Of a stretch of DNA of 64,000 nt, positions 1,536 through 50,890 are shown piece by piece. The stretch's first letter is position 1. Each line of letters begins with the position of its first letter. Under the pieces are notes generated by a model. The model was given only the letters and a program-made list of their open reading frames with translations, made no database searches and was not told the DNA's origin. Source of the DNA: a phage; assembly GCA_033648345.1 (NCBI GenBank), contig GCA_033648345.1_4121.1, one strand, 5' to 3'. The position numbers were made by a program, and so were the translations under genes.

Positions 1536-1565
1536 TTGGGACAACACTGAAAAGCATGATATAAT
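1536..1565 (+). promoter_or_regulatory. putative promoter, TGGGACA-N17-TGATATAAT variant
   Basis: ttgggaca ... tgatataat read directly; same architecture recurs at 6674, 24137, 35334. Confidence 0.45.
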
Positions 1566-6669: not shown

Positions 6670-6673
6670 ATAT

Positions 6674-6702
6674 TGGGACAGACCAAAAAGATGTGATATA
6701 AT
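6674..6702 (+). promoter_or_regulatory. putative promoter, TGGGACA-N17-TGATATAAT variant
   Basis: tgggac agaccaaaaagatgtga tataat. Confidence 0.45.
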
Positions 6703-6725
6703 TATTAACATGATAACAAAAATAC

Positions 6726-7130
6726 ATGGAACGTAAAATGTGGGGAAACGAATATAAATCAAAACAAGGAAATATTGGAGTTGCTCGTGCAATAGATTAC
6801 TATGTCACGAATGGTTATTCAGTGTCGATACCGATGAATGACACACAATCATATGACTTGGTTGTTGATGATAATATTAAATTGTATAGAGTATCCGTAA
6901 AAACAACATCATACAAAGCACCATCTGGAAATTATAATGTCCAACTAAAAAATAGTGGTGGTTCTAGTGGTAAGAGTGTTATACGAAACTTTGATAAAAC
7001 ATCGTGTGACATACTGTTTGTGTTGTGTGATAATAATGACATATATATCATCCCAATTGATGACATTGATGCACATTCAGCATTTACATTAACTGAAGAA
7101 CGTAAGAAATATATTAGAAAATTATATTAA
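6726..7130 (+). CDS. hypothetical protein, possible PD-(D/E)xK-like nuclease
   Basis: ORF in track; D...VSVK spacing weakly resembles PD-(D/E)xK; low certainty. Confidence 0.45.
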   Translation: MERKMWGNEYKSKQGNIGVARAIDYYVTNGYSVSIPMNDTQSYDLVVDDNIKLYRVSVKTTSYKAPSGNYNVQLKNSGGSSGKSVIRNFDKTSCDILFVLCDNNDIYIIPIDDIDAHSAFTLTEERKKYIRKLY

Positions 7131-7136
7131 AAATAT

Positions 7137-7222
<86 letters not shown>

Positions 7223-7239
7223 CAATTAAAGGTTAAACC

Positions 7240-7400
<161 letters not shown>

Positions 7401-7404
<4 letters not shown>

Positions 7405-7561
7405 CACATGAAGAATGGATGAATGACATTAATTTTAGATATTCGGGTATCGGTAAATGGCTAAAGTATCATTGGGAATTCATTTCAGAGCCACATCTGT
7501 ATGATAAACTTATCAACGATCCAGCATATGAAATGTACTTAATTGAACTACTGGTACGAAT

Positions 7562-21851: not shown

Positions 21852-21857
21852 AAGTAT

Positions 21858-21886
21858 TTGACTTAACCAATAACATGGAGTACAAT
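21858..21886 (+). promoter_or_regulatory. putative promoter TTGACT-N17-TACAAT
   Basis: ttgacttaaccaataacatggagtacaat. Confidence 0.45.
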
Positions 21887-21925
21887 GTGCTCCTAATTTA
21901 ATTATCAGCTAAAAAGGAAAACATT

Positions 21926-22186
21926 ATGAAATCTATTCTCGTTGCAGTTAACCTGGTTGCTTCCCCATCTTTTAACTTCAAACAAGTTGTTGCTGATAAT
22001 CTGAAGAAGATCTGTCCAAACGCTGAATTGACTTTCTGTGTGTTTGATTCAGAAAAAGTAACTAAAGTTGATCTAAACTATCTTTTGAACGAAGTACAAA
22101 GTATTTCTGGTGAAAGTAGTTTGGAAGTACTGAATACGGTTGCTGATGACTATGATGATACACTGGTAATTTCGGAGAAATTCTAA
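21926..22186 (+). CDS. hypothetical protein
   Basis: ORF in track after AAAGGAAA. Confidence 0.45.
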   Translation: MKSILVAVNLVASPSFNFKQVVADNLKKICPNAELTFCVFDSEKVTKVDLNYLLNEVQSISGESSLEVLNTVADDYDDTLVISEKF

Positions 22187-22191
22187 ATCCA

Positions 22192-22611
22192 ATGCTTAGA
22201 TTTATACATTACTTAATCAGTAAGTTCTTTGGTTATTATACTATTGAAGGTAAAGCTACGCTTGCACATAAAATCTTTGTAGCATTATGTGTGGGTGATT
22301 ATGACGTATTGAATAAGCACTGTAAATCTAAAGCATGTATTGACATAATGGCACTTCGTATCTATGAGTGTCAGTTCAATAGATATAATTTTTACCAGTA
22401 CAGATATGATAAAGATGATTTTGATAGCATTAAAATGCTAAAGAATTTATGTAATAATAAAAAGAATATGCATATATCTGAATTTGTTGCATTGTATTTT
22501 TATTTAAAAAGTTCATTATACATGAATACACTTCAACGCTTCGATCCTGGAATTAATGTATTCAACGATAAAGAATATTATATCTATGATAAATTTTTAG
22601 ATAAGGTTTAA
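22192..22611 (+). CDS. hypothetical protein
   Basis: ORF in track. Confidence 0.45.
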   Translation: MLRFIHYLISKFFGYYTIEGKATLAHKIFVALCVGDYDVLNKHCKSKACIDIMALRIYECQFNRYNFYQYRYDKDDFDSIKMLKNLCNNKKNMHISEFVALYFYLKSSLYMNTLQRFDPGINVFNDKEYYIYDKFLDKV

Positions 22612-22612
22612 T

Positions 22613-23110
22613 ATGACGACTGTTTATATTGATAAACGCTTGGGAGTATTACTTACTGATTCAAAAGTGACATCAACTGAGCAACGTTCATTTTTGAACC
22701 TATTCCCGTTGAAACCAAAACTTAGTTATGGTGTAGTTTCACAAAAAACATTGTATGTACACGACCGACTGTTTAGTGCTTGCGGTGAAGTTAGTGAAAT
22801 TAACAAAGTACTGAGATACTTGATTTCACAAGAGACTGTGATACCAGACCGCAAGGCGAGTTGTCACTGTGTTCTTGTGTCAAAAGATTACATCATTCAC
22901 TTAATCGTTAATAAGGGTAAGTTTACCAAGAAGATTGATTATCTCCATAATGATTATACATTCTTTATGGGTAGTGGTGGTGAATACATGCTTGATGCAG
23001 CAGTACATGAAGAGTATAATACTCTTCTTGATAAGGTATTTGATACCTTCATGGATGTTCATAACCATGATATCTATACCGATGATAATATTAATGTATA
23101 CCGTTTTTGA
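22613..23110 (+). CDS. hypothetical protein
   Basis: ORF in track. Confidence 0.5.
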   Translation: MTTVYIDKRLGVLLTDSKVTSTEQRSFLNLFPLKPKLSYGVVSQKTLYVHDRLFSACGEVSEINKVLRYLISQETVIPDRKASCHCVLVSKDYIIHLIVNKGKFTKKIDYLHNDYTFFMGSGGEYMLDAAVHEEYNTLLDKVFDTFMDVHNHDIYTDDNINVYRF

Positions 23111-23132
23111 TTTCATTCATTAGGAGAAGTAA

Positions 23133-24101
23133 GTGAAAAAGCTTGATTTAAATGCAATTTCTGAAGAAGTACTGGATGAGTGTTTTGCTAGTGAAGAAGT
23201 CAACGTATTAGAGGCTCTTGATTCCGTCGAAGAAGAAGAAGAACATGACGGTCACAAGTTTGAGAAACCAAAAACAGGTATCAGCTTAACTCGCCCTAAA
23301 GGGATAACGAATGAAATGCTCATCCAAGCAGTGCGTGATGGTATTGACGTTGAAAAGAACATTGACCTTTTGGTTCGCTACAACTATCCAATGGTAGTAA
23401 GTGTTGCACGTAAGTGTACATGTTTTATCCCATTTGAAGATAAGATTTCTTATGGTGTTGAAGGTTTAATGCGAGCAATTCATACGTTCGACACTACCAA
23501 AAATGTTAAGTTCATTACATATGCAACAACAACTGTGTACATGACAATCTATAACGAAAGTGCAGATGCTAATTATCTAGTGCATTTCCCACGTTATATG
23601 AGTGTTAATAACATTTATGTGAAACGTTGTGTAGAAGAGTATCAAAGGAAACATGGTAAATACCCAACTCCTGAGATGGTGTCAAAAGAGACTGGTATTG
23701 AGATTCAACACGTTAAGAATTGTCTAACTTACAATAACACTTATGTAGCATTGAATATGAAAATGAGTAATGATTCAGAAAGTACATTATCTGACATTGT
23801 TACTTCAGTTGAACCTGATTACAACTTAGGCGTAGAAACTGTCAGTACCCCACTGGTACAAAGTATTGCAGAAATGATGAGTAACCTATCTGCCAAAGAC
23901 CGTGAATTGATTGAACGTGTACATGGTATTGGTTCTTATTCTGAACCAGAAACGCTACGAGAAATCATTGAGAGTGGTTTTGAAGATGAGAAGGGTAAGG
24001 TCATGACTGCTCGTTCTTCATTGCACCGTAAGTACTCTGAAGCAATGGAACGACTGCGTAAGATGGTTAAGACAAAAGGTTATGAGTTCGAAGATTTTTA
24101 A
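23133..24101 (+). CDS. sigma-70 family RNA polymerase sigma factor (322 aa)
   Basis: region-2-like MVVSVARK...YGVEGLMRAIHTFD...KFITYATTTVYMTI and region-4-like LSAKDRELIERVHGIGS...ETLREII; recognised from motifs only. Confidence 0.7.
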   Translation: MKKLDLNAISEEVLDECFASEEVNVLEALDSVEEEEEHDGHKFEKPKTGISLTRPKGITNEMLIQAVRDGIDVEKNIDLLVRYNYPMVVSVARKCTCFIPFEDKISYGVEGLMRAIHTFDTTKNVKFITYATTTVYMTIYNESADANYLVHFPRYMSVNNIYVKRCVEEYQRKHGKYPTPEMVSKETGIEIQHVKNCLTYNNTYVALNMKMSNDSESTLSDIVTSVEPDYNLGVETVSTPLVQSIAEMMSNLSAKDRELIERVHGIGSYSEPETLREIIESGFEDEKGKVMTARSSLHRKYSEAMERLRKMVKTKGYEFEDF

Positions 24102-24107
24102 GATTAA

Positions 24108-24135
24108 AGGGTTGACTTCGGTCAGCCTTTTTTTT
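24108..24135 (+). terminator. PeSL-like stem-loop plus T8 (terminator; -10 degenerate in this copy)
   Basis: ggttgac-ttcg-gtcagcc hairpin followed by T8. Confidence 0.6.
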
Positions 24136-24136
24136 A

Positions 24137-24165
24137 TGGGACAAATTTATTAATGGTGATACAAT
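24137..24165 (+). promoter_or_regulatory. putative promoter, TGGGACA-N17-(TG)ATACAAT variant
   Basis: tgggacaaatttattaatggtgatacaat; precedes ORF-free region. Confidence 0.45.
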
Positions 24166-24171
24166 GATCTA

Positions 24172-24660
24172 TGTACAATCACAATGACAGTACTGGTACT
24201 GACAATCTTCCCCTACTTCACTTGAAAATGTAAAGGATAGATGAGCTTTTCATTGTAGCGAACAGCAAAAGAAACCCGTTAGATGTGGGCATAGTTTGAA
24301 CCCCTCACGGCAATGCGGCTGTATAAAGAACCACGTTAGGATAGCTGGTGGTTCCTCGATAGACATATAAGGATAACACCTTACGAATTATCTAAGGGAG
24401 AGTTATCGAATTTTGTACAGGAAAGTTGCGTCCAAAATTTGAGTACTCACATTAAGTATTTGATTGCATAGATACTTAATGAAGATACACTATGTTTAAA
24501 AGTGTAGACCGTCATATGAAACTGAAGTAGAGAGAAACAGGATGACCCGCTTTCGCACTCGTTATGAGTAATCTTCAATGCAATAGCTCTGATACCATCA
24601 GCGTCAAATTTCCCTCCGTGCGGGGGGAAGAAAAATCCCTTCCTCAAATCCCGTCAATAT
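24172..24660 (+). ncRNA. candidate structured non-coding RNA (about 490 nt, function unknown)
   Basis: no plus-strand ORF of 60 aa or more in an otherwise ORF-dense region; locally GC-richer; multiple stems (e.g. gaaccac...gtggttc); bracketed by promoters. Confidence 0.35.
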
Positions 24661-24669
24661 TAAAAGTCC

Positions 24670-24698
24670 TTGACAGTTATGATTCATTCGCGTAGAAT
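24670..24698 (+). promoter_or_regulatory. sigma70-type promoter TTGACA-N17-TAGAAT
   Basis: ttgacagttatgattcattcgcgtagaat. Confidence 0.5.
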
Positions 24699-24762
24699 AC
24701 GTAGTATTAGAAGCGAACAGACATCTCGAAGAGATGGATGATTAACCATTGAGGAATATCTA

Positions 24763-35333: not shown

Positions 35334-35362
35334 TGGGACAACCATTTCATACGTGATATAAT
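35334..35362 (+). promoter_or_regulatory. putative promoter, TGGGACA-N17-(TG)ATATAAT variant
   Basis: tgggacaaccatttcatacgtgatataat. Confidence 0.45.
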
Positions 35363-47834: not shown

Positions 47835-47870
47835 AAAAATCCAGTACTATTATAGTACTGGATTAATTTT
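47835..47870. terminator. bidirectional terminator between convergent arrays
   Basis: ccagtac-N7-gtactgg hairpin flanked by A- and T-runs. Confidence 0.6.
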
Positions 47871-48993
47871 AATTATCTAAGCCACCAATTACACTGAACT
47901 GTGTGGTAACGTCTGAATTATTATCTATGTAAGTTCTTCTACCAACATAATATAGTTGTCCTTTAGCTTGAATAAAAGTTACGGTCCCTGTATTGAATGT
48001 TATAATATCATTGTATGTAATGTCAGGTGGTAGTGCTGCTGATAACGCAGTAACTTTACTTAATGCAGCACTAGCACTACCATTTATACCAGCAGCAATA
48101 CTACCAGTACCATAGAACTTATTATCTTTACCAATGAATACGTTGGCTGATGCTTGTGTAGCTGATGTTATTGCCTTACCAATTTGGAATGCGGTTCCTA
48201 TGGTGTATGGTGTGCTCCTGGCAGCGTCTATGCTTTGTGTATATCCATCCCCTAGCTGACCATTAACTTTGTCACCACATGAGTATAGAGTACCATTGTG
48301 GCTGTATATGATCCCACGGTTAGAGAAGCTAACAGCTTCTGCATTAGTCCATACTGGTGCGGTGTATGAGTTTACACGACTAGCGGTAGTTCCTAGACCT
48401 AGTATACCATATGTGTTATCACCACATCCAAACCATTGTCCAGAACTGTTTTGATAGAACACTGAACGTTCTGTTGATTCCATGCGTACAGCATCCACAG
48501 CACCACTTTTAACGAACGAAGTTGATGAGGATGTAGTACCAGTACCCAATGCACCATAAGTGTTTGTACCAATCGCATATATTGATCCTAGTGGTGTCAT
48601 AACACGTATGCAGTTATATCCCAATTGAACTTTACATTCAAATAGGTTGTCCCATATTTCAGGAACAGCAGAAAATAAATTTGTAATTTCGAACCATGAT
48701 GTTGTCGAACCAGTTAATCCTATACTGCTTTTGTTTCCTAAAATGAAAACAGTTTTGTCCTTCTTAATTATCCATGATGATAGGAAACCTATCTCACAGC
48801 TATGAACATTTGATTCTATTTGGGTAATATAATACTTAACTGTGTTATCACCCATGAATGCCGCAGCACCGGATGCAAAAAGGTTTCCAGTTTGTTTATT
48901 TAAAATGTAGTTATTGTTTCCATATACACTAACATCATAAGAACTTTCTTGTTTTTCGTTCCCATAATCAAATAACAATACGAAAGGTAACAT
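47869..48993 (-). CDS. RCC1-like repeat beta-propeller protein, array member 1
   Basis: MLPFVLLFDYGN N-terminus; repeats IYAIGTNTYGALGTGTT / WFGCGDNTYGILGLGTT / LYSCGDKVNGQLGDGYT. Confidence 0.75.
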   Translation of the reverse strand: MLPFVLLFDYGNEKQESSYDVSVYGNNNYILNKQTGNLFASGAAAFMGDNTVKYYITQIESNVHSCEIGFLSSWIIKKDKTVFILGNKSSIGLTGSTTSWFEITNLFSAVPEIWDNLFECKVQLGYNCIRVMTPLGSIYAIGTNTYGALGTGTTSSSTSFVKSGAVDAVRMESTERSVFYQNSSGQWFGCGDNTYGILGLGTTASRVNSYTAPVWTNAEAVSFSNRGIIYSHNGTLYSCGDKVNGQLGDGYTQSIDAARSTPYTIGTAFQIGKAITSATQASANVFIGKDNKFYGTGSIAAGINGSASAALSKVTALSAALPPDITYNDIITFNTGTVTFIQAKGQLYYVGRRTYIDNNSDVTTQFSVIGGLDN

Positions 48994-49070
48994 GATAAAA
49001 TCTCCTTGTGTTATACTTTATTTAATCATTTTATAATGTACAATTTTACAGCGATTTAATTGAGGTACTC

Positions 49071-49721
49071 ATGAATAAAAGAAGTAAGTTCTATCAAGAA
49101 TATTTCACTAAACAGAAACGATTCACAAAAAAATACTTTACATCATCCCACCGACCAGTTGCAAGTTACAAACGTCCTAATACTAACTATCTTACTGGTG
49201 GCAAGTTTAGTGCAAAGTTCGAATTACTTATGCGTGAAAAGAATATCAAGATGCATTACGCAGAGACGAGAAAAAACTCATCAATTATTTGTTCTGATTT
49301 TCTTGAGTACGGTTGCTTAACTTATAAATTCAATGATGTATATTTGTATATTGATGTTGATTGTAACAGTACTCTTATGTTTGAGATTTCAATTCACCCA
49401 AATCACAACCGTTATATAAACATTAACTTGATTGATAAAGTACTGATTGGTATATCTAGTACTGATGGTGGTGGATTTGAATTTATTGCTTCAAAATATG
49501 ATGAAGATTTCGTACTTTACCCAGTACTTGATGATGTGAAAGATATACTCAATTCATTAAAAGGAAGTCAATACAAATTATCTGAAGAACAGCTATTTCA
49601 GTACTCACTTATTCATGATGATATCGAGATATACTTAGAGTGTGCGAGAATATTGGAGTATCTTTATAATGAACTAACAACAACTGGTAAAGTGACAGCA
49701 TTCACATTATATAATATGTAA
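49071..49721 (+). CDS. hypothetical protein, EE-x-F-Q-Y-S motif family, embedded in minus-strand array
   Basis: ORF in track; SEEQLFQYSLIHDD. Confidence 0.55.
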   Translation: MNKRSKFYQEYFTKQKRFTKKYFTSSHRPVASYKRPNTNYLTGGKFSAKFELLMREKNIKMHYAETRKNSSIICSDFLEYGCLTYKFNDVYLYIDVDCNSTLMFEISIHPNHNRYININLIDKVLIGISSTDGGGFEFIASKYDEDFVLYPVLDDVKDILNSLKGSQYKLSEEQLFQYSLIHDDIEIYLECARILEYLYNELTTTGKVTAFTLYNM

Positions 49722-49728
49722 AAGAAAA

Positions 49729-49747
49729 GCCAGTACATAGTACTGGC
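49729..49747. terminator. bidirectional terminator hairpin
   Basis: gccagtac-ata-gtactggc between convergent genes. Confidence 0.55.
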
Positions 49748-49753
49748 ATTATA

Positions 49754-50890
49754 TTAAACTGGTGGAGAATTATATGGCTCAAATTTATAAGTTGTCGTAG
49801 CAGTACCAGCAATGGCGTTGTTAGCTAGTATGTACATAGTCCTGTAGTCGATTACCACTACAGTAATACTACCACCAAAAGCATAGTCTGTTATGTTATT
49901 AGTGTTGAATGGTAAATTAGATGAACTGGTCCATGTATTAGCTGTTGTGCTATTTGTACCATTGGAATAACCTACACTAGATGCACCAGTTGTCCATAAG
50001 TTTCCATCATTGAACAAGGAGACATGGTTAGTTGTATATGATTTATTAGGTATAGAACTATCAATTGGTGTATTCCAAACTTTAGTAACCCATGTTGTAA
50101 CTGCTGTATTATTAGTAACGCCATTACCTAATGAACCATTTATTGGTATACCTCTTATATAAGAAGTGTTAGTACTAGGGTCAACATATCCAAATGTATA
50201 TGTATCAAATGCAAATTGAAAACAATCAGAACTCGGTAATGTGTACAGTAATGTATATGAAGACGTGTTTATTGATGAATTTGTACCGTTCACGCCTTGG
50301 TATAAAATACCACTAGCCAATATTTGATTATTATTTTTTGTTATAGTGTTCATTGATGGATATGTTTTCACATCACGCACATCATTAGTCACATATGTTT
50401 GTGTTGATAATGCAACGTTACTACCATTACCTATAACCCCTGTATTTGCACCACTCCCATAAAGTGAACCATCATTCAAAAGAACCATTGTAACATTACC
50501 ATTTCCCGTAATTGTTTTAATATTACTAACATCCACCGCAGCAAATACAGTTGATGTTAAATCAGTGAAACGTGTATAATGTGATGTTGTGCCATTGATT
50601 GGTGTCGCAAAACCAGAATACAATATTCTATTTTCTTTGGTAATAAGGAATGTTCCAGTAACACCATTTGAATGGATATCAACAATATTATCTCCCATTA
50701 ATACCCAATCACTTACGAATGTTGTTGTACCAGTACCTAACCCATGTGTAGTGTTGTAACCACGTCCATACACTCTACCATCACTGAGTAATGTTACCAC
50801 ACATTGACCACCACCACCAAGGATAACTTTTTGGATAGTACTCTTTACTTTTATATTCCCGTACTTAACCATTCTTGCAAAAGGTAACAT
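49754..50890 (-). CDS. RCC1-like repeat protein, array member 2
   Basis: MLPFARMVKYGN; repeats YGRGYNTTHGLGTGTT / LYGSGANTGVIGNGSN. Confidence 0.75.
   Translation of the reverse strand: MLPFARMVKYGNIKVKSTIQKVILGGGGQCVVTLLSDGRVYGRGYNTTHGLGTGTTTFVSDWVLMGDNIVDIHSNGVTGTFLITKENRILYSGFATPINGTTSHYTRFTDLTSTVFAAVDVSNIKTITGNGNVTMVLLNDGSLYGSGANTGVIGNGSNVALSTQTYVTNDVRDVKTYPSMNTITKNNNQILASGILYQGVNGTNSSINTSSYTLLYTLPSSDCFQFAFDTYTFGYVDPSTNTSYIRGIPINGSLGNGVTNNTAVTTWVTKVWNTPIDSSIPNKSYTTNHVSLFNDGNLWTTGASSVGYSNGTNSTTANTWTSSSNLPFNTNNITDYAFGGSITVVVIDYRTMYILANNAIAGTATTTYKFEPYNSPPV

What the first reader, a model, noticed from the sequence alone, without database searches (positions are those of the whole stretch)
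23133..24101. Phage-encoded sigma-70-family sigma factor
The 322-aa product has region-2-like (EDKISYGVEGLMRAIHTFD...KFITYATTTVYMTI) and region-4-like (DRELIERVHGIGS...ETLREII) segments. T4 itself relies on host sigma70 plus the small late factor gp55, so a full-length sigma70-family gene here is unexpected. It could drive a distinct promoter class in this genome.
Basis: partly seen in the sequence, partly recalled or inferred. Interest (0 to 1): 0.6.

Follow-up and report, generated by a model that had tools for sequence, protein, structure and literature searches.

The report
Jumbo-phage RpoD-like sigma factor gene
The gene is a real sigma-70-family sigma factor, but the genome is a 370-kb jumbo coliphage (not T4) where such a gene is an already annotated hallmark; comparison between phages suggests it reads a distinct 'middle' promoter class, one copy of which, right next to the gene, heads an undescribed structured RNA.

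Summary
Observation confirmed. ORF 23133-24101 (+, GTG start, AGGAG ribosome-binding site, 322 aa) encodes a sigma-70-family protein. Pfam regions 2 and 3 score above threshold. Region 4 is missed by Pfam but is shown by structure: all 50 best PDB matches of the C-terminal model are sigma region 4 domains.

The premise is wrong. The window is 99.5% identical to jumbo coliphage fEgEco12, a relative of 121Q, RaK2 and CBB. [quoted passage not shown] A separate gp55-like late factor also exists. The gene itself is therefore already known.

New here:
- The gene ends a four-gene early operon with a sigma70-type promoter and an intrinsic terminator.
- Its DNA-reading residues differ from sigma70 but are nearly invariant within the phage clade.
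- The genome holds a discrete promoter class, T-G-R-G-A-C-A, 13 nt, TGnTATAAT: 18 on the coding strand, 0 on the other.
- The hexamer changes between phage clades together with the sigma recognition helix.
- These promoters precede replication genes, the gp55-like gene, and a four-copy, ~490-nt structured RNA with strong covariation and no Rfam match.

Assigning this promoter class to the sigma is inference.

The parts
21858..21886 (+). Sigma70-type promoter (TTGACT, 17 nt, TACAAT) heading the four-gene operon that ends with the sigma gene
   Evidence: Consensus scan, 10 of 12 matches, in the intergenic gap 21852-21925. No other good promoter lies between it and the sigma gene except weaker in-gene matches. 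Function is inferred.
21926..23110 (+). Three upstream operon genes (21926-22186, 22192-22611, 22613-23110), tightly spaced or overlapping. The third is annotated 'HslV' in fEgEco12.
   Evidence: ORFs; annotation. No Pfam hits. PHROGs of unknown function; the third has only a weak HslV-family match at E=2.8e-6.
23122..23126 (+). Shine-Dalgarno AGGAG, 6 nt before the GTG start
   Evidence: Sequence read directly
23133..24101 (+). Sigma factor coding sequence, 322 aa including stop codon in the coordinates
   Evidence: Identical coordinates to the annotated g519 in fEgEco12.
23370..23558 (+). Region 2 (residues 80-142): core binding and -10 recognition. F119, F127 and Y130 are kept. The sigma70 positions W433, W434, Q437 and T440 are T, T, M and Y here.
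   Evidence: Pfam PF04542, 37.2 bits.
23619..23807 (+). Region 3 (residues 163-225)
   Evidence: Pfam PF04539, 44.9 bits
23838..24077 (+). Region 4 (residues ~236-315): four helices with a helix-turn-helix. An 8-10-residue insertion (SGFEDEKGKVM, nt 23973-24005) forms a small beta-hairpin in the turn. The recognition helix is ARSSLHRKY (nt 24009-24035).
   Evidence: No Pfam r4 hit. AlphaFold model of the domain: pLDDT 85, pTM 0.73. All 50 best PDB matches are sigma region 4 domains. A profile of the domain alone finds the RpoS sigma4 chain 6fi7 at E=4e-4.
24106..24134 (+). Intrinsic terminator (GGGTTGAC-TTCG-GTCAGCC plus a T-run), 5 nt after the stop codon. It belongs to a repeated terminator/promoter family but lacks the TATAAT found in the other copies.
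24138..24165 (+). Class-2 ('middle-type') promoter GGGACA, 13 nt, TGATACAAT. This is the candidate cognate promoter type for this sigma.
   Evidence: Same register as 17 other sites in the genome.
24172..24656 (+). ORF-less, ~485-nt structured RNA element, one of four paralogues per genome, lying directly downstream of the class-2 promoter
   Evidence: About 98% identical to 121Q over 24260-24760, against 72-86% for flanking genes. Four copies per genome. Found in 61 phage records. 76 predicted pairs, 38 with compensatory changes, and controls passed. No Rfam match.
1538..1565 (+). Class-2 promoter (GGGACA, 13 nt, TGATATAAT)
6675..6702 (+). Class-2 promoter (GGGACA, 13 nt, TGATATAAT), upstream of the tRNA region
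35335..35362 (+). Class-2 promoter (GGGACA, 13 nt, TGATATAAT)

Best explanation
The gene encodes a divergent sigma-70-family sigma factor of a jumbo myovirus that has no RNA polymerase of its own.

Shown:
- It has sigma regions 2, 3 and 4.
- It is the last gene of a four-gene unit that starts with a host-sigma70-type promoter and ends at an intrinsic terminator, inside a region of small early-type genes.
- Its promoter-reading residues differ from sigma70 but are almost invariant among its phage relatives.
- The genome contains three promoter-like classes: the sigma70 consensus; a discrete bipartite class T-G-R-G-A-C-A, 13 nt, TGnTATAAT; and a T4-late-like ATAAATA class.
- A separate gp55-like late factor exists.

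Inferred: host sigma70 holoenzyme transcribes the sigma gene early. The new sigma then binds host core RNA polymerase and directs it to the second class. That class drives the replication genes (clamp, ssDNA-binding protein, primase, exonuclease, topoisomerase), the gp55-like late-factor gene and four structured RNA genes. The result is a cascade: sigma70, then the RpoD-like sigma, then the gp55-like sigma. Region 4, with its altered recognition helix and inserted hairpin, is proposed to read the GRGACA hexamer.
For: Sigma identity: Pfam r2 and r3 score above cut-off; PHROG 351 E=2.7e-48; Foldseek's best hits are sigmaS/sigmaA chains, with 262 of 277 sigmaS residues aligned at E=3e-11; the region 4 fold is confirmed.

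Early expression: the promoter at 21858 and the terminator at 24106.

No phage RNA polymerase is annotated in the 366 kb of fEgEco12 read, which agrees with PMC7824862.

Class 2 is real and discrete:
- 18 sites on the + strand, 0 on the - strand, against about 2.9 in shuffles.
- 17 of 18 have identical spacing.
- Among NNGACA sites, NN is TT (37), GG (10) or GA (8) and almost nothing else, although GG and GA are each 4.5% of the background.
- The extended -10 TG is present in 16/18 sites against 8/37 for TT sites, Fisher p=3.9e-6.

Co-variation across clades, with hosts that share the same kind of sigma70:
- Helix ARSSLHRKY/SRSSIHRKY (this phage, 121Q) goes with GRGACA.
- Munch SRTSLHRCY goes with GGGACA.
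- RaK2 VRGTLHYKF goes with TGAACA.
- CBB/BF SKATLSRRY goes with G(A/G)AAC(G/A).
. The hexamers are mutually exclusive between genomes and differ at orthologous promoters for ssb, rnh and g310/ORF055.

The DNA-reading segments are invariant within the clade despite about 50% overall identity.

No AsiA homologue is present, which argues against T4-style appropriation of host sigma70.

The gp55-like gene g336 (PHROG 12791, E=1.4e-152, match from residue 36) has a class-2 promoter just upstream of its likely start, as reported for CBB_244 (PMC5259590).
Against: - No experiment links this protein to any promoter.
- The -10 element of class 2 is a perfect sigma70 extended -10 (TGnTATAAT), which host sigma70 can use without a good -35. 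Yet this sigma has lost the sigma70 residues tied to -12 and TG recognition: Q437, T440, H455 and E458 are M, Y, Y and V/S here.
- Region 2.4/3.0 residues differ between phage clades while the -10 stays the same.
- The co-variation rests on four clades and is qualitative. An unidentified clade-specific activator would give the same pattern.
- Core-binding residues of region 2.2 are only partly kept (Q406, E407 and N409 are S, Y and V here).
- Pfam and NCBIfam scores are far below the equivalog cut-offs.
Confidence: 0.6

Rival explanations
1. The protein is a sigma factor, but class-2 promoters are read by host sigma70 through their extended -10 element, helped by an unidentified clade-specific phage activator that binds the hexamer (functionally like T4 MotA). 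The phage sigma would then have another promoter set, still unidentified.
For: The -10 of class 2 is an ideal sigma70 extended -10, and the TG is near-obligatory, as expected if the -35 is not read by sigma70 region 4. This sigma lacks the sigma70 residues for -12/TG contacts. Several small 'transcriptional regulator' genes are annotated in the genome.
Against: No AsiA homologue was found. The hexamer sits exactly where region 4 of a sigma bound at the -10 would reach (16-nt spacer), and it retains the GACA/AAC core of a -35 element. No other bipartite motif that could serve the phage sigma was found among intergenic k-mers. The hexamer changes follow changes in the sigma recognition helix in four clades.
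Confidence: 0.2
2. The phage sigma is a replacement for host sigma70. It reads the same consensus promoters (class 1) and keeps phage transcription going after the phage inactivates or displaces host sigma70.
For: Sigma70-consensus promoters occur throughout the genome, not only in early regions: 121 on the + strand against 12 on the - strand. The closest cellular relatives by profile are RpoD, RpoS and SigB.
Against: Every specificity position tested differs from sigma70. At sigma70 positions 585, 588 and 589 it has S, H and R. At 433, 434, 437 and 440 it has T, T, M and Y. The HTH turn also carries an insertion. These differences are conserved, which indicates selection for a different specificity.
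Confidence: 0.12
3. The protein acts mainly as a competitor or decoy that occupies host core RNA polymerase (host shut-off) without directing specific initiation.
For: It is expressed from an early operon. Its N-terminal 50 residues are acidic and disordered. Nothing is known experimentally.
Against: A complete and strongly conserved DNA-recognition apparatus, including the region 2.3-2.4 aromatics F119, F127 and Y130 and the region 4 HTH with invariant RSSxHRKY, would not be maintained in a pure decoy.
Confidence: 0.05

Closest known systems
RpoD-like sigma factors of 'group 2' jumbo phages (fEgEco12 g519, 121Q gp167, RaK2 ORF244, CBB_513, GAP32; PHROG 351)
   Same: It is the same gene. It is 99-100% identical to the annotated fEgEco12, Ecwhy_1 and vB_Ec-M-J proteins, 59% to 121Q/PBECO4, 39% to RaK2 and 33-37% to CBB, BF and Munch. 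It has the same position in an early region. It shares the HTH-turn insertion and the N-terminal motif MKKLDLNxIxEEVLDECF.
   Different: Nothing distinguishes it as a gene. Compared with 121Q it is the most diverged gene of its neighbourhood (59% aa against 85-99% for most neighbours), yet its DNA-reading segments are unchanged.
E. coli sigmaS / sigma70 (group 1-2 sigma factors)
   Same: Regions 1.2-like, 2, 3 and 4 occur in the same order. These are the best structural matches (5ipl_F, E=3e-11). The -11A pocket aromatics F419, F427 and Y430 and the region 4.2 residue R584 are kept.
   Different: About 24% identity. It scores far below the NCBIfam equivalog cut-offs (96 bits against 354). W433/W434 are replaced by T/T. 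The -12, TG and -35 specificity residues are replaced. There is an 8-10-residue insertion in the HTH turn and no Pfam r4 or r1.2 hit.
T4 gp55 (late sigma) and the T4 MotA/AsiA middle-transcription system
   Same: Functional analogy only: both are phage-directed reprogramming of host RNA polymerase in temporal classes. The genome does have a gp55-like gene (fEgEco12 g336, outside the window) beside gp47/gp46 homologues, as in T4.
   Different: The window gene is not gp55-like. It is a full multi-domain sigma. No AsiA homologue is present. Middle-type promoters here carry a -35-like hexamer, not a MotA box.
Bacillus phage SPO1 gp28 and other phage middle-gene sigma factors
   Same: The proposed logic is the same: an early gene read by the host primary sigma encodes a sigma that switches core polymerase to middle promoters, which in turn express the late factor(s) (general knowledge; PMC13401047 abstract).
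   Different: There is no detectable close sequence relationship. SPO1 gp28 is a small, highly divergent sigma, whereas this one is RpoD-like with regions 2-4. This comparison was not tested here beyond the database searches.
CBB/GAP32 'divergent RpoD-like promoters' (PMC5259590, Table S6)
   Same: Same architecture and register as class 2 here: a hexamer, 13 nt, then TGnTATAAT. They sit upstream of DNA-synthesis genes and the gp55-like gene.
   Different: The hexamer is G(A/G)AAC(G/A) in CBB and G(G/A)GACA here. The paper did not assign these promoters to the phage sigma and did not note the co-variation or the RNA genes.

Membership tests
Sigma-70 family (bacterial-type RNA polymerase sigma factors) | Region 2 (core binding, -10 recognition and melting) | tested here: met
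   Pfam PF04542, 37.2 bits against a cut-off of 24, residues 80-142. Conserved D103, G108, G111, F119, F127 and Y130.
Sigma-70 family (bacterial-type RNA polymerase sigma factors) | Region 3 | tested here: met
   Pfam PF04539, 44.9 bits against a cut-off of 25.3, residues 163-225
Sigma-70 family (bacterial-type RNA polymerase sigma factors) | Region 4 helix-turn-helix (-35 recognition, beta-flap binding) | tested here: met
   No Pfam PF04545 hit. The domain model (pLDDT 85) matches only sigma region 4 domains in the PDB: top 50 hits, TM 0.5-0.77, rmsd 1.8-3.4 A. The domain profile finds RpoS sigma4 at E=4e-4. The domain is atypical because of an insertion in the HTH turn.
Sigma-70 family (bacterial-type RNA polymerase sigma factors) | Binds core RNA polymerase and confers promoter-specific initiation | not testable with these tools
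   Needs biochemistry. The only support is indirect comparative evidence.
Group 1/2 sigma (RpoD/RpoS equivalogs) | Scores above the curated equivalog cut-offs; region 1.2 present; conserved W433/W434 and the Q437/T440 -12 readers | tested here: not met
   RpoD_Cterm 96 bits against 354; rpoS_proteo 81.8 against 378.7. No PF00140 hit. WW is replaced by TT, and Q437 and T440 by M and Y.
Jumbo-phage RpoD-like sigma clade (PHROG 351; 'group 2' jumbo phage hallmark) | Full-length match to the phage family profile, in a jumbo myovirus that lacks its own RNA polymerase and also encodes a gp55-like factor | tested here: met
   PHROG 351 E=2.7e-48 over residues 1-319. 71 phage records with at least 80% coverage, all jumbo phages among the close hits. 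A gp55-like g336 is present. No RNA polymerase subunit is annotated in fEgEco12.
T4 gp55 late sigma family | Similarity to gp55 (PHROG 12791/234); small factor with a region-2-like domain only | tested here: not met
   The window protein hits only PHROG 351. The gp55-like protein is a different gene, g336, with PHROG 12791 at E=1.4e-152.

The most novel reading that the evidence does not exclude
The sigma factor defines a private 'middle' regulon, and its -35 hexamer co-evolves with the sigma recognition helix across jumbo-phage genera. The most conserved members of that regulon are not proteins. They are a previously undescribed family of ~490-nt, highly structured RNAs, present in 2-5 divergent copies per genome. 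One copy lies immediately downstream of the sigma gene at 24172-24656. Every copy examined (4 in fEgEco12; 121Q, CBB, BF, Munch, EJP2, Yen9-04, Kaldavass and RaK2; 19 metagenomic copies) sits behind the clade-specific class-2 promoter.
Probability: 0.45. Interest if true: 0.75.

Novelty: already known. Interest (0 to 1): 0.35.

Why it matters
The gene as such adds nothing new. It is annotated in the near-identical published genome and is recognised as a hallmark of RNA-polymerase-less jumbo phages.

What could matter is that nobody appears to have shown what these sigma factors read. The comparative pattern found here gives a concrete hypothesis that is cheap to test with purified protein and E. 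coli core polymerase. The pattern has three parts: a discrete bipartite promoter class, a clade-specific hexamer that tracks the recognition helix, and a cascade from sigma70 to the RpoD-like sigma to the gp55-like factor. It also offers a natural set of orthogonal sigma/promoter pairs (GRGACA, TGAACA, GAAACG) that work with an enterobacterial core enzyme.

Separately, the neighbouring ~490-nt RNA family has strong covariation, no Rfam match, several copies per genome and about 70% nucleotide conservation where proteins are only about 35% identical. It looks like a new large phage RNA of unknown function and deserves its own study.

Tried and rejected
1. T4-like context: rejected. Megablast places the window in jumbo phage fEgEco12.
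2. Exact CBB motif TGAAACG, 14-20 nt, TATA in the window: 0 matches. The related class appeared only after de novo analysis.
3. Exact T4 late motif TATAAATA: 1 in the window against 11.9 expected and only 9 in 366 kb. The late motif here is (non-T)ATAAATA.
4. The dominant intergenic k-mer AGTACT and the motif AAGTACTTGCA turned out to belong to sigma70-type promoters of the terminal repeat, not to a new class.
5. 'Class 2 is just weak sigma70 promoters': rejected by the NN-dinucleotide and TG-extension tabulation.
6. AsiA-dependent sigma appropriation: no AsiA homologue was found, best E=0.42. MotA was not tested because I had no reliable query.
7. Pfam on the three upstream operon genes and on g336: nothing at E<=0.01. 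The 'HslV' annotation rests on a weak PHROG match only.
8. RNA element against Rfam at gathering and E<=1 thresholds, 7 copies in all: nothing relevant.
9. Single-sequence folding energy of the RNA: z=-1.38, not significant. The structural support comes from covariation instead.
10. PA5oct RNA-seq-verified ncRNA001, 002 and 004 as possible relatives of the RNA family: no similarity, so there is no borrowed expression evidence.
12. The loose DNA pattern scan of IMG/VR returned mostly chance matches. Only about 20 of about 120 loci were confirmed by nhmmer.
Full report

The ORF lies at 23133-24101 on the + strand. It has a GTG start and encodes 322 aa. The opposite strand is closed by many stop codons. 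AGGAG sits 6 nt before the GTG. The first 20 residues are conserved in every homologue examined (invariant K2, L6, E12, F18), so the annotated start is sound.

Profile searches leave no doubt about the family:
- Pfam Sigma70_r2: 37.2 bits, cut-off 24, residues 80-142.
- Pfam Sigma70_r3: 44.9 bits, cut-off 25.3, residues 163-225.
- PHROG 351 'RNA polymerase sigma factor': E=2.7e-48 over residues 1-319.
- 67 distinct PDB sigma chains at E<=1e-3.

2. WHAT GENOME THIS IS

The surrounding 3.5 kb is 99.5% identical to Escherichia phage fEgEco12 (374,733 bp). It is 97-99% identical to vB_Ec-M-J, Turkey3, Ecwhy_1 and CMSTMSU, and about 84% identical to 121Q/PBECO4 (Asteriusvirus). This is a jumbo myovirus, not T4.

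In fEgEco12 the same ORF, with the same start, is g519 'RNA polymerase sigma factor'. Homologues are annotated as sigma factors in 121Q, RaK2, CBB, Serratia phage BF, Munch and others.

The literature already covers this gene family:
- Iyer et al. 2021 state that all 'group 2' jumbo phages lack an RNA polymerase and encode sigma factors of two types, a minimal type and an RpoD-like type (PMC7824862).
- The CBB paper describes the orthologue CBB_513 with regions 2, 3 and 4 in the early region (PMC5259590).

I found no biochemical characterisation. The gene is therefore known by annotation, and its function is assumed rather than tested.

fEgEco12 g336 lies beside gp47/gp46 homologues. It matches PHROG 12791 'sigma factor for late transcription' at E=1.4e-152. 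Its RaK2 counterpart is annotated gp55.

3. ANATOMY OF THE PROTEIN

The full-length AlphaFold model (pLDDT 69.6) is confident for residues 55-145, 155-200 and 240-315. It is disordered for the acidic N-terminal 50 residues and for the region 3.2 linker. Foldseek's best PDB matches are sigmaS and sigmaA chains from holoenzyme structures (5ipl_F, E=3e-11, 262 aligned columns of 277).

Pfam does not detect region 4, so I tested it separately:
- A profile of the C-terminal 87 residues from nine phage proteins retrieves almost only sigma region 4 chains from the PDB. The RpoS sigma4 chain 6fi7 scores E=4e-4, and 24 of 26 hits are sigma chains. The alignment stops at an insertion.
- A model of the domain alone (pLDDT 85.2, pTM 0.73) has four helices plus a small beta-hairpin.
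- All 50 of its best PDB matches are sigma region 4 domains, with TM 0.5-0.77 and rmsd 1.8-3.4 A.

Region 4 is therefore present. It is atypical because 8-10 residues (consensus GFxDxxGK) are inserted in the turn of the helix-turn-helix.

I aligned the protein to E. coli RpoD. The alignment shows:
- Kept: D403, G408, G411, F419, F427, Y430, P453, R584.
- Replaced: Y425 by V, W433 by T, W434 by T, Q437 by M, T440 by Y, H455 by Y, E458 by V or S, E585 by S, R588 by H, Q589 by R.

From established sigma70 genetics (recalled, not tested here), positions 437/440, 455/458 and 584-589 are the -12, extended -10 and -35 specificity determinants. A changed promoter specificity is therefore expected.

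These segments are almost invariant among eleven homologues that are otherwise only 48-88% identical: TYA(T/S)(T/S)(T/S)xYMTxYNES, PRYMSV, and RSSxHRKY. This is notable because, compared with 121Q, the sigma gene is the most diverged gene in its neighbourhood. It is 59% identical in amino acids, the upstream 'HslV-like' gene is 74.5%, and most other neighbours are 85-99%.

4. EXPRESSION CONTEXT

The window is a run of small, same-strand genes of unknown function. A sigma70-type promoter (TTGACT, 17 nt, TACAAT) sits at 21858-21886 in an intergenic gap. Four tightly packed genes follow, with the sigma gene last. A strong intrinsic terminator lies 5 nt after its stop codon (24106-24131 plus a T-run). 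The inference is that host holoenzyme transcribes the gene early in infection.

The three partner genes have no Pfam match. The 'HslV' label of g518 rests on a weak PHROG match at E=2.8e-6.

5. DOES THE GENOME CONTAIN A PROMOTER CLASS FOR IT?

The window is almost entirely early-type, so I assembled 366 kb of fEgEco12.

Class 1. Sigma70-consensus sites with at least 11 of 12 matches number 121 on the + strand and 12 on the - strand, all along the genome. They include near-identical families in the terminal repeat and fused terminator/promoter modules.

Class 3. Structural genes are preceded by (non-T)ATAAATA, as reported for CBB. The exact T4 motif TATAAATA is strongly avoided.

Class 2. Inspection of the regions upstream of replication genes revealed G(G/A)GACA about 13 nt upstream of TGnTATAAT. 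The evidence that this is a real, discrete class:
- The pattern G[AG]GACA, 14-19 nt, TANAAT occurs 18 times on the + strand and never on the - strand. Shuffles give a mean of about 2.9 and a maximum of 7.
- 17 of 18 sites share exactly the same spacing, 13 of 18 have T before the hexamer, and nearly all have the extended -10 TG. None of these features was required by the search.
- The stricter pattern with 13 nt and TG gives 15 sites against 0.0 in shuffles.
- The class is not a tail of weak sigma70 promoters. Among all NNGACA-spacer-TAYAAT sites on the + strand, NN is TT (37), GG (10) or GA (8), and every other dinucleotide occurs three times or fewer. GG and GA are each only 4.5% of the dinucleotides before GACA, while AT plus AA make up 27%.
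- The TG extension accompanies 16 of 18 GR sites but only 8 of 37 TT sites (Fisher p=3.9e-6).

Downstream of class-2 sites lie the sliding clamp, ssDNA-binding protein, primase, an exonuclease, topoisomerase II, a nudix hydrolase, several unknown genes, four ORF-less elements (section 7) and the gp55-like gene. For the gp55-like gene, the site at 190988 falls inside the annotated 5' extension of g336, but the PHROG match begins at residue 36. Four exact class-2 sites lie in the window: 1538, 6675, 24138 and 35335.

6. LINKING CLASS 2 TO THE SIGMA: CO-VARIATION

The 18 'divergent RpoD-like' promoters published for CBB (Table S6 of PMC5259590) have the same architecture and register. Their hexamer is G(A/G)AAC(G/A), preceded by T.

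In 150 kb of RaK2 the equivalent sites carry (T/C)TGAAC(A/G). They lie at orthologous positions: upstream of ssb, rnh, ORF055 (the counterpart of g310) and ORF142 (the counterpart of g401).

The three hexamers are mutually exclusive between genomes.

The recognition helices, aligned to sigma70 positions 583-591 (TRERIRQIE), are:
- this phage: ARSSLHRKY
- 121Q: SRSSIHRKY
- Munch: SRTSLHRCY
- RaK2: VRGTLHYKF
- BF and CBB: SKATLSRRY

Phages with R at position 584 and H at position 588 use xxGACA. The K/S phages use xxAAC(G/A). RaK2 has Y instead of R at position 589 and differs in the first hexamer positions.

Munch's sigma is only 36% identical overall but keeps R, H and R. The one Munch promoter I read has GGGACA, which is what the pattern predicts. 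I saw the Munch helix and promoter only after forming the idea, so this works as a small independent check. It is still a single site.

The hosts (Escherichia, Salmonella, Klebsiella, Pectobacterium) are all Enterobacterales, whose sigma70 region 4 is, to my knowledge, essentially identical. I did not test this. If so, a phage-encoded reader must explain the hexamer differences.

A T4-type solution, with AsiA plus an activator, is less likely. T4 AsiA finds 1169 phage records, and every listed one is a T4-like genome of 130-200 kb. My recalled query matched T4 at 100%. It finds nothing in fEgEco12, where the best E is 0.42.

The weak points are real:
- The -10 element is an ideal sigma70 extended -10, yet this sigma lacks the sigma70 residues for TG and -12 contacts.
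- The co-variation is qualitative and rests on four clades.
- An unknown clade-specific activator is not excluded.

I therefore rate the full mechanism at about 0.6. In that mechanism, early expression leads the sigma to bind host core polymerase and read class-2 promoters, which in turn switch on replication genes and the gp55-like late factor. The identification of the protein as a sigma-70-family member is near certain.

7. AN UNEXPECTED NEIGHBOUR

The 660 bp after the sigma gene contain no ORF and are unannotated in fEgEco12 and 121Q. Yet positions 24260-24760 are about 98% identical between the two phages, against 72-86% for the flanking genes, and the substitutions show no codon periodicity.

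The element starts just after the class-2 promoter at 24138. It has three paralogues in fEgEco12, at about 59.9, 110.7 and 195.8 kb, with 70-79% identity. These sit behind exactly the three other class-2 promoters that had no nearby ORF.

blastn finds the element in 61 jumbo-phage records, with 2-5 places per genome. Identity is about 70% in CBB, GAP32, BF, Erwinia and Yersinia phages, Munch and EJP2, where the sigma proteins are only about 35% identical.

An alignment of 11 copies has about 170 invariant positions. RNAalifold predicts 76 pairs, 38 of them with compensatory double changes. These include long-range pairs that tie the 3' end to internal invariant blocks.

The controlled count gives:
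- Cells paired: 95.3%, against 80.4% in shuffles and 40-48% when partners are slid.
- Pairs with double changes: 38, against 24.5 in shuffles (0 of 500 reach the observed value).
- Covariation score: 0.473, against 0.194.

An nhmmer profile confirms four copies in fEgEco12, one in RaK2 (E=9e-44, overlapping the annotated ORF014w) and about 20 in IMG/VR contigs, mostly of 350-380 kb. All 19 IMG/VR copies with upstream sequence have a class-2 promoter in register. The RaK2 copy is preceded by RaK2's TGAACA hexamer.

Rfam 15 has no match for seven copies at E<=1. The RNA-seq-defined ncRNAs of the related phage PA5oct are not homologous. I found no description in the searchable literature, but that library is incomplete.

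The function is unknown. The number of invariant unpaired nucleotides suggests a ribozyme-like or protein-binding RNA. I did not pursue this beyond the checks above. It is recorded under 'noticed in passing' and in the novel case.

8. VERDICT

The element of surprise came from mistaking the genome for a T4-like phage.

As a gene it is already known: it is annotated in the near-identical published genome and is a recognised hallmark of its phage group. It is not a member of the RpoD/RpoS equivalog groups or of the gp55 family. It belongs to the phage-specific RpoD-like clade, PHROG 351.

- A structural demonstration of the atypical region 4.
- The operon context of the gene.
- A specific, testable candidate for its cognate promoters, with cross-clade co-variation.
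- The discovery that these promoters head a conserved multi-copy structured RNA family.

I set interest for the finding itself at 0.35. The associated RNA and regulon reading would deserve more if confirmed.

Noticed in passing
window 24172-24656 (+); paralogues in fEgEco12 at 59876-60383, 110634-111198 and 195738-196234; CBB L017:206-690; BF L018:155-644; Munch L019:210-712; RaK2 6831-7429: A ~490-nt ORF-less element immediately downstream of the sigma gene. It is about 98% identical to 121Q where flanking genes are 72-86%. It has 4 paralogues per genome and is about 70% conserved in nucleotides across jumbo-phage genera. 76 base pairs are predicted, 38 with compensatory changes, and the shuffle and slide controls are passed. 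Rfam has no match. Every copy sits behind a class-2 promoter. It is probably a new large structured phage RNA of unknown function.
   Followed up: yes
window 24106, 32227, 35821, 38556, 39238, 43601, 44145, 44485 (+): A repeated module, AAAGGGTTGAC-TTCG-GTCAGCCCTTTTTGTTATAAT. It is an intrinsic-terminator hairpin whose stem contains a TTGAC -35 element, followed by a T-run and TATAAT at promoter spacing, so it is a fused terminator and sigma70-type promoter. The copy after the sigma gene has lost the TATAAT.
   Followed up: partly
intergenic regions genome-wide; in the window e.g. 7735, 8156, 9302, 26495, 41698 (+): The palindromic k-mer AGTACT is hugely over-represented in intergenic DNA: CAGTACT occurs in 56 upstream regions against 1.2 expected. 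Typical forms are TCAGTACTG directly abutting the -10 of sigma70-type promoters, AAGTAC directly before the -35 in terminal-repeat promoters, and terminator stems (GCCAGTAC...GTACTGGC). I have no explanation.
   Followed up: partly
whole window; fEgEco12 genome: The T4 late-promoter octamer TATAAATA is strongly avoided: 1 in the window against 11.9 +/- 3.4 expected, and 9 in 366 kb. Structural genes are instead preceded by (C/G/A)ATAAATA.
   Followed up: partly
window 22613-24101 compared with 121Q (L002:3614-5098): The sigma gene (59% aa identity) and the upstream 'HslV-like' gene (74.5%) form a divergence hot spot between the fEgEco12-type and 121Q-type phages. Most neighbours are 85-99% identical and the adjacent RNA element about 98%. 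This points to either allele replacement by recombination or fast evolution outside the DNA-reading segments, which are unchanged.
   Followed up: partly
fEgEco12 190974-191912 (L006:40974-41912), outside the window: The annotated start of the gp55-like late sigma g336 is probably about 35 codons too far upstream. A class-2 promoter (190988-191015) lies inside the annotated 5' end, and the PHROG match begins at residue 36.
   Followed up: partly
fEgEco12 g160, g340 and g341; RaK2 ORF014w (6672-7325, - strand); Kaldavass CDS0101/0102: Small 'hypothetical protein' ORFs annotated on top of copies of the structured RNA element are probably spurious gene calls.
   Followed up: no
window 47869-64000 (- strand): An array of at least 12 paralogous genes of about 1.2 kb, annotated 'chromosome condensation regulator / DNA condensation protein' in fEgEco12. 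They have conserved 5' ends, ribosome-binding sites and inter-gene hairpins (repeat families D1, D2, D6, D8).
   Followed up: no
window 7137-7215 and 7221-7542 (+): A tRNA-like sequence found by Rfam (32.6 bits) but not by ARAGORN, followed by two tandem 161-nt repeats. A class-2 promoter lies upstream at 6675.
   Followed up: no
residues 1-20 of the sigma (window 23133-23192): The N-terminal motif MKKLDLNxIxEEVLDECF is conserved across all phage clades (invariant K2, L6, E12, F18), although the following ~35 acidic residues are variable and disordered. It has no counterpart in cellular sigma factors. It may be a docking peptide.
   Followed up: no
literature versus data: Ecwhy_1 MH791411 1665-2630: The fEgEco12 paper lists Gp519 (the sigma) among proteins 'completely absent' in Ecwhy_1. 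However, tblastn finds a 99.7% identical ORF there, annotated 'similar to RNA polymerase sigma factor'. The reported absence is probably an artefact of the comparison.
   Followed up: partly
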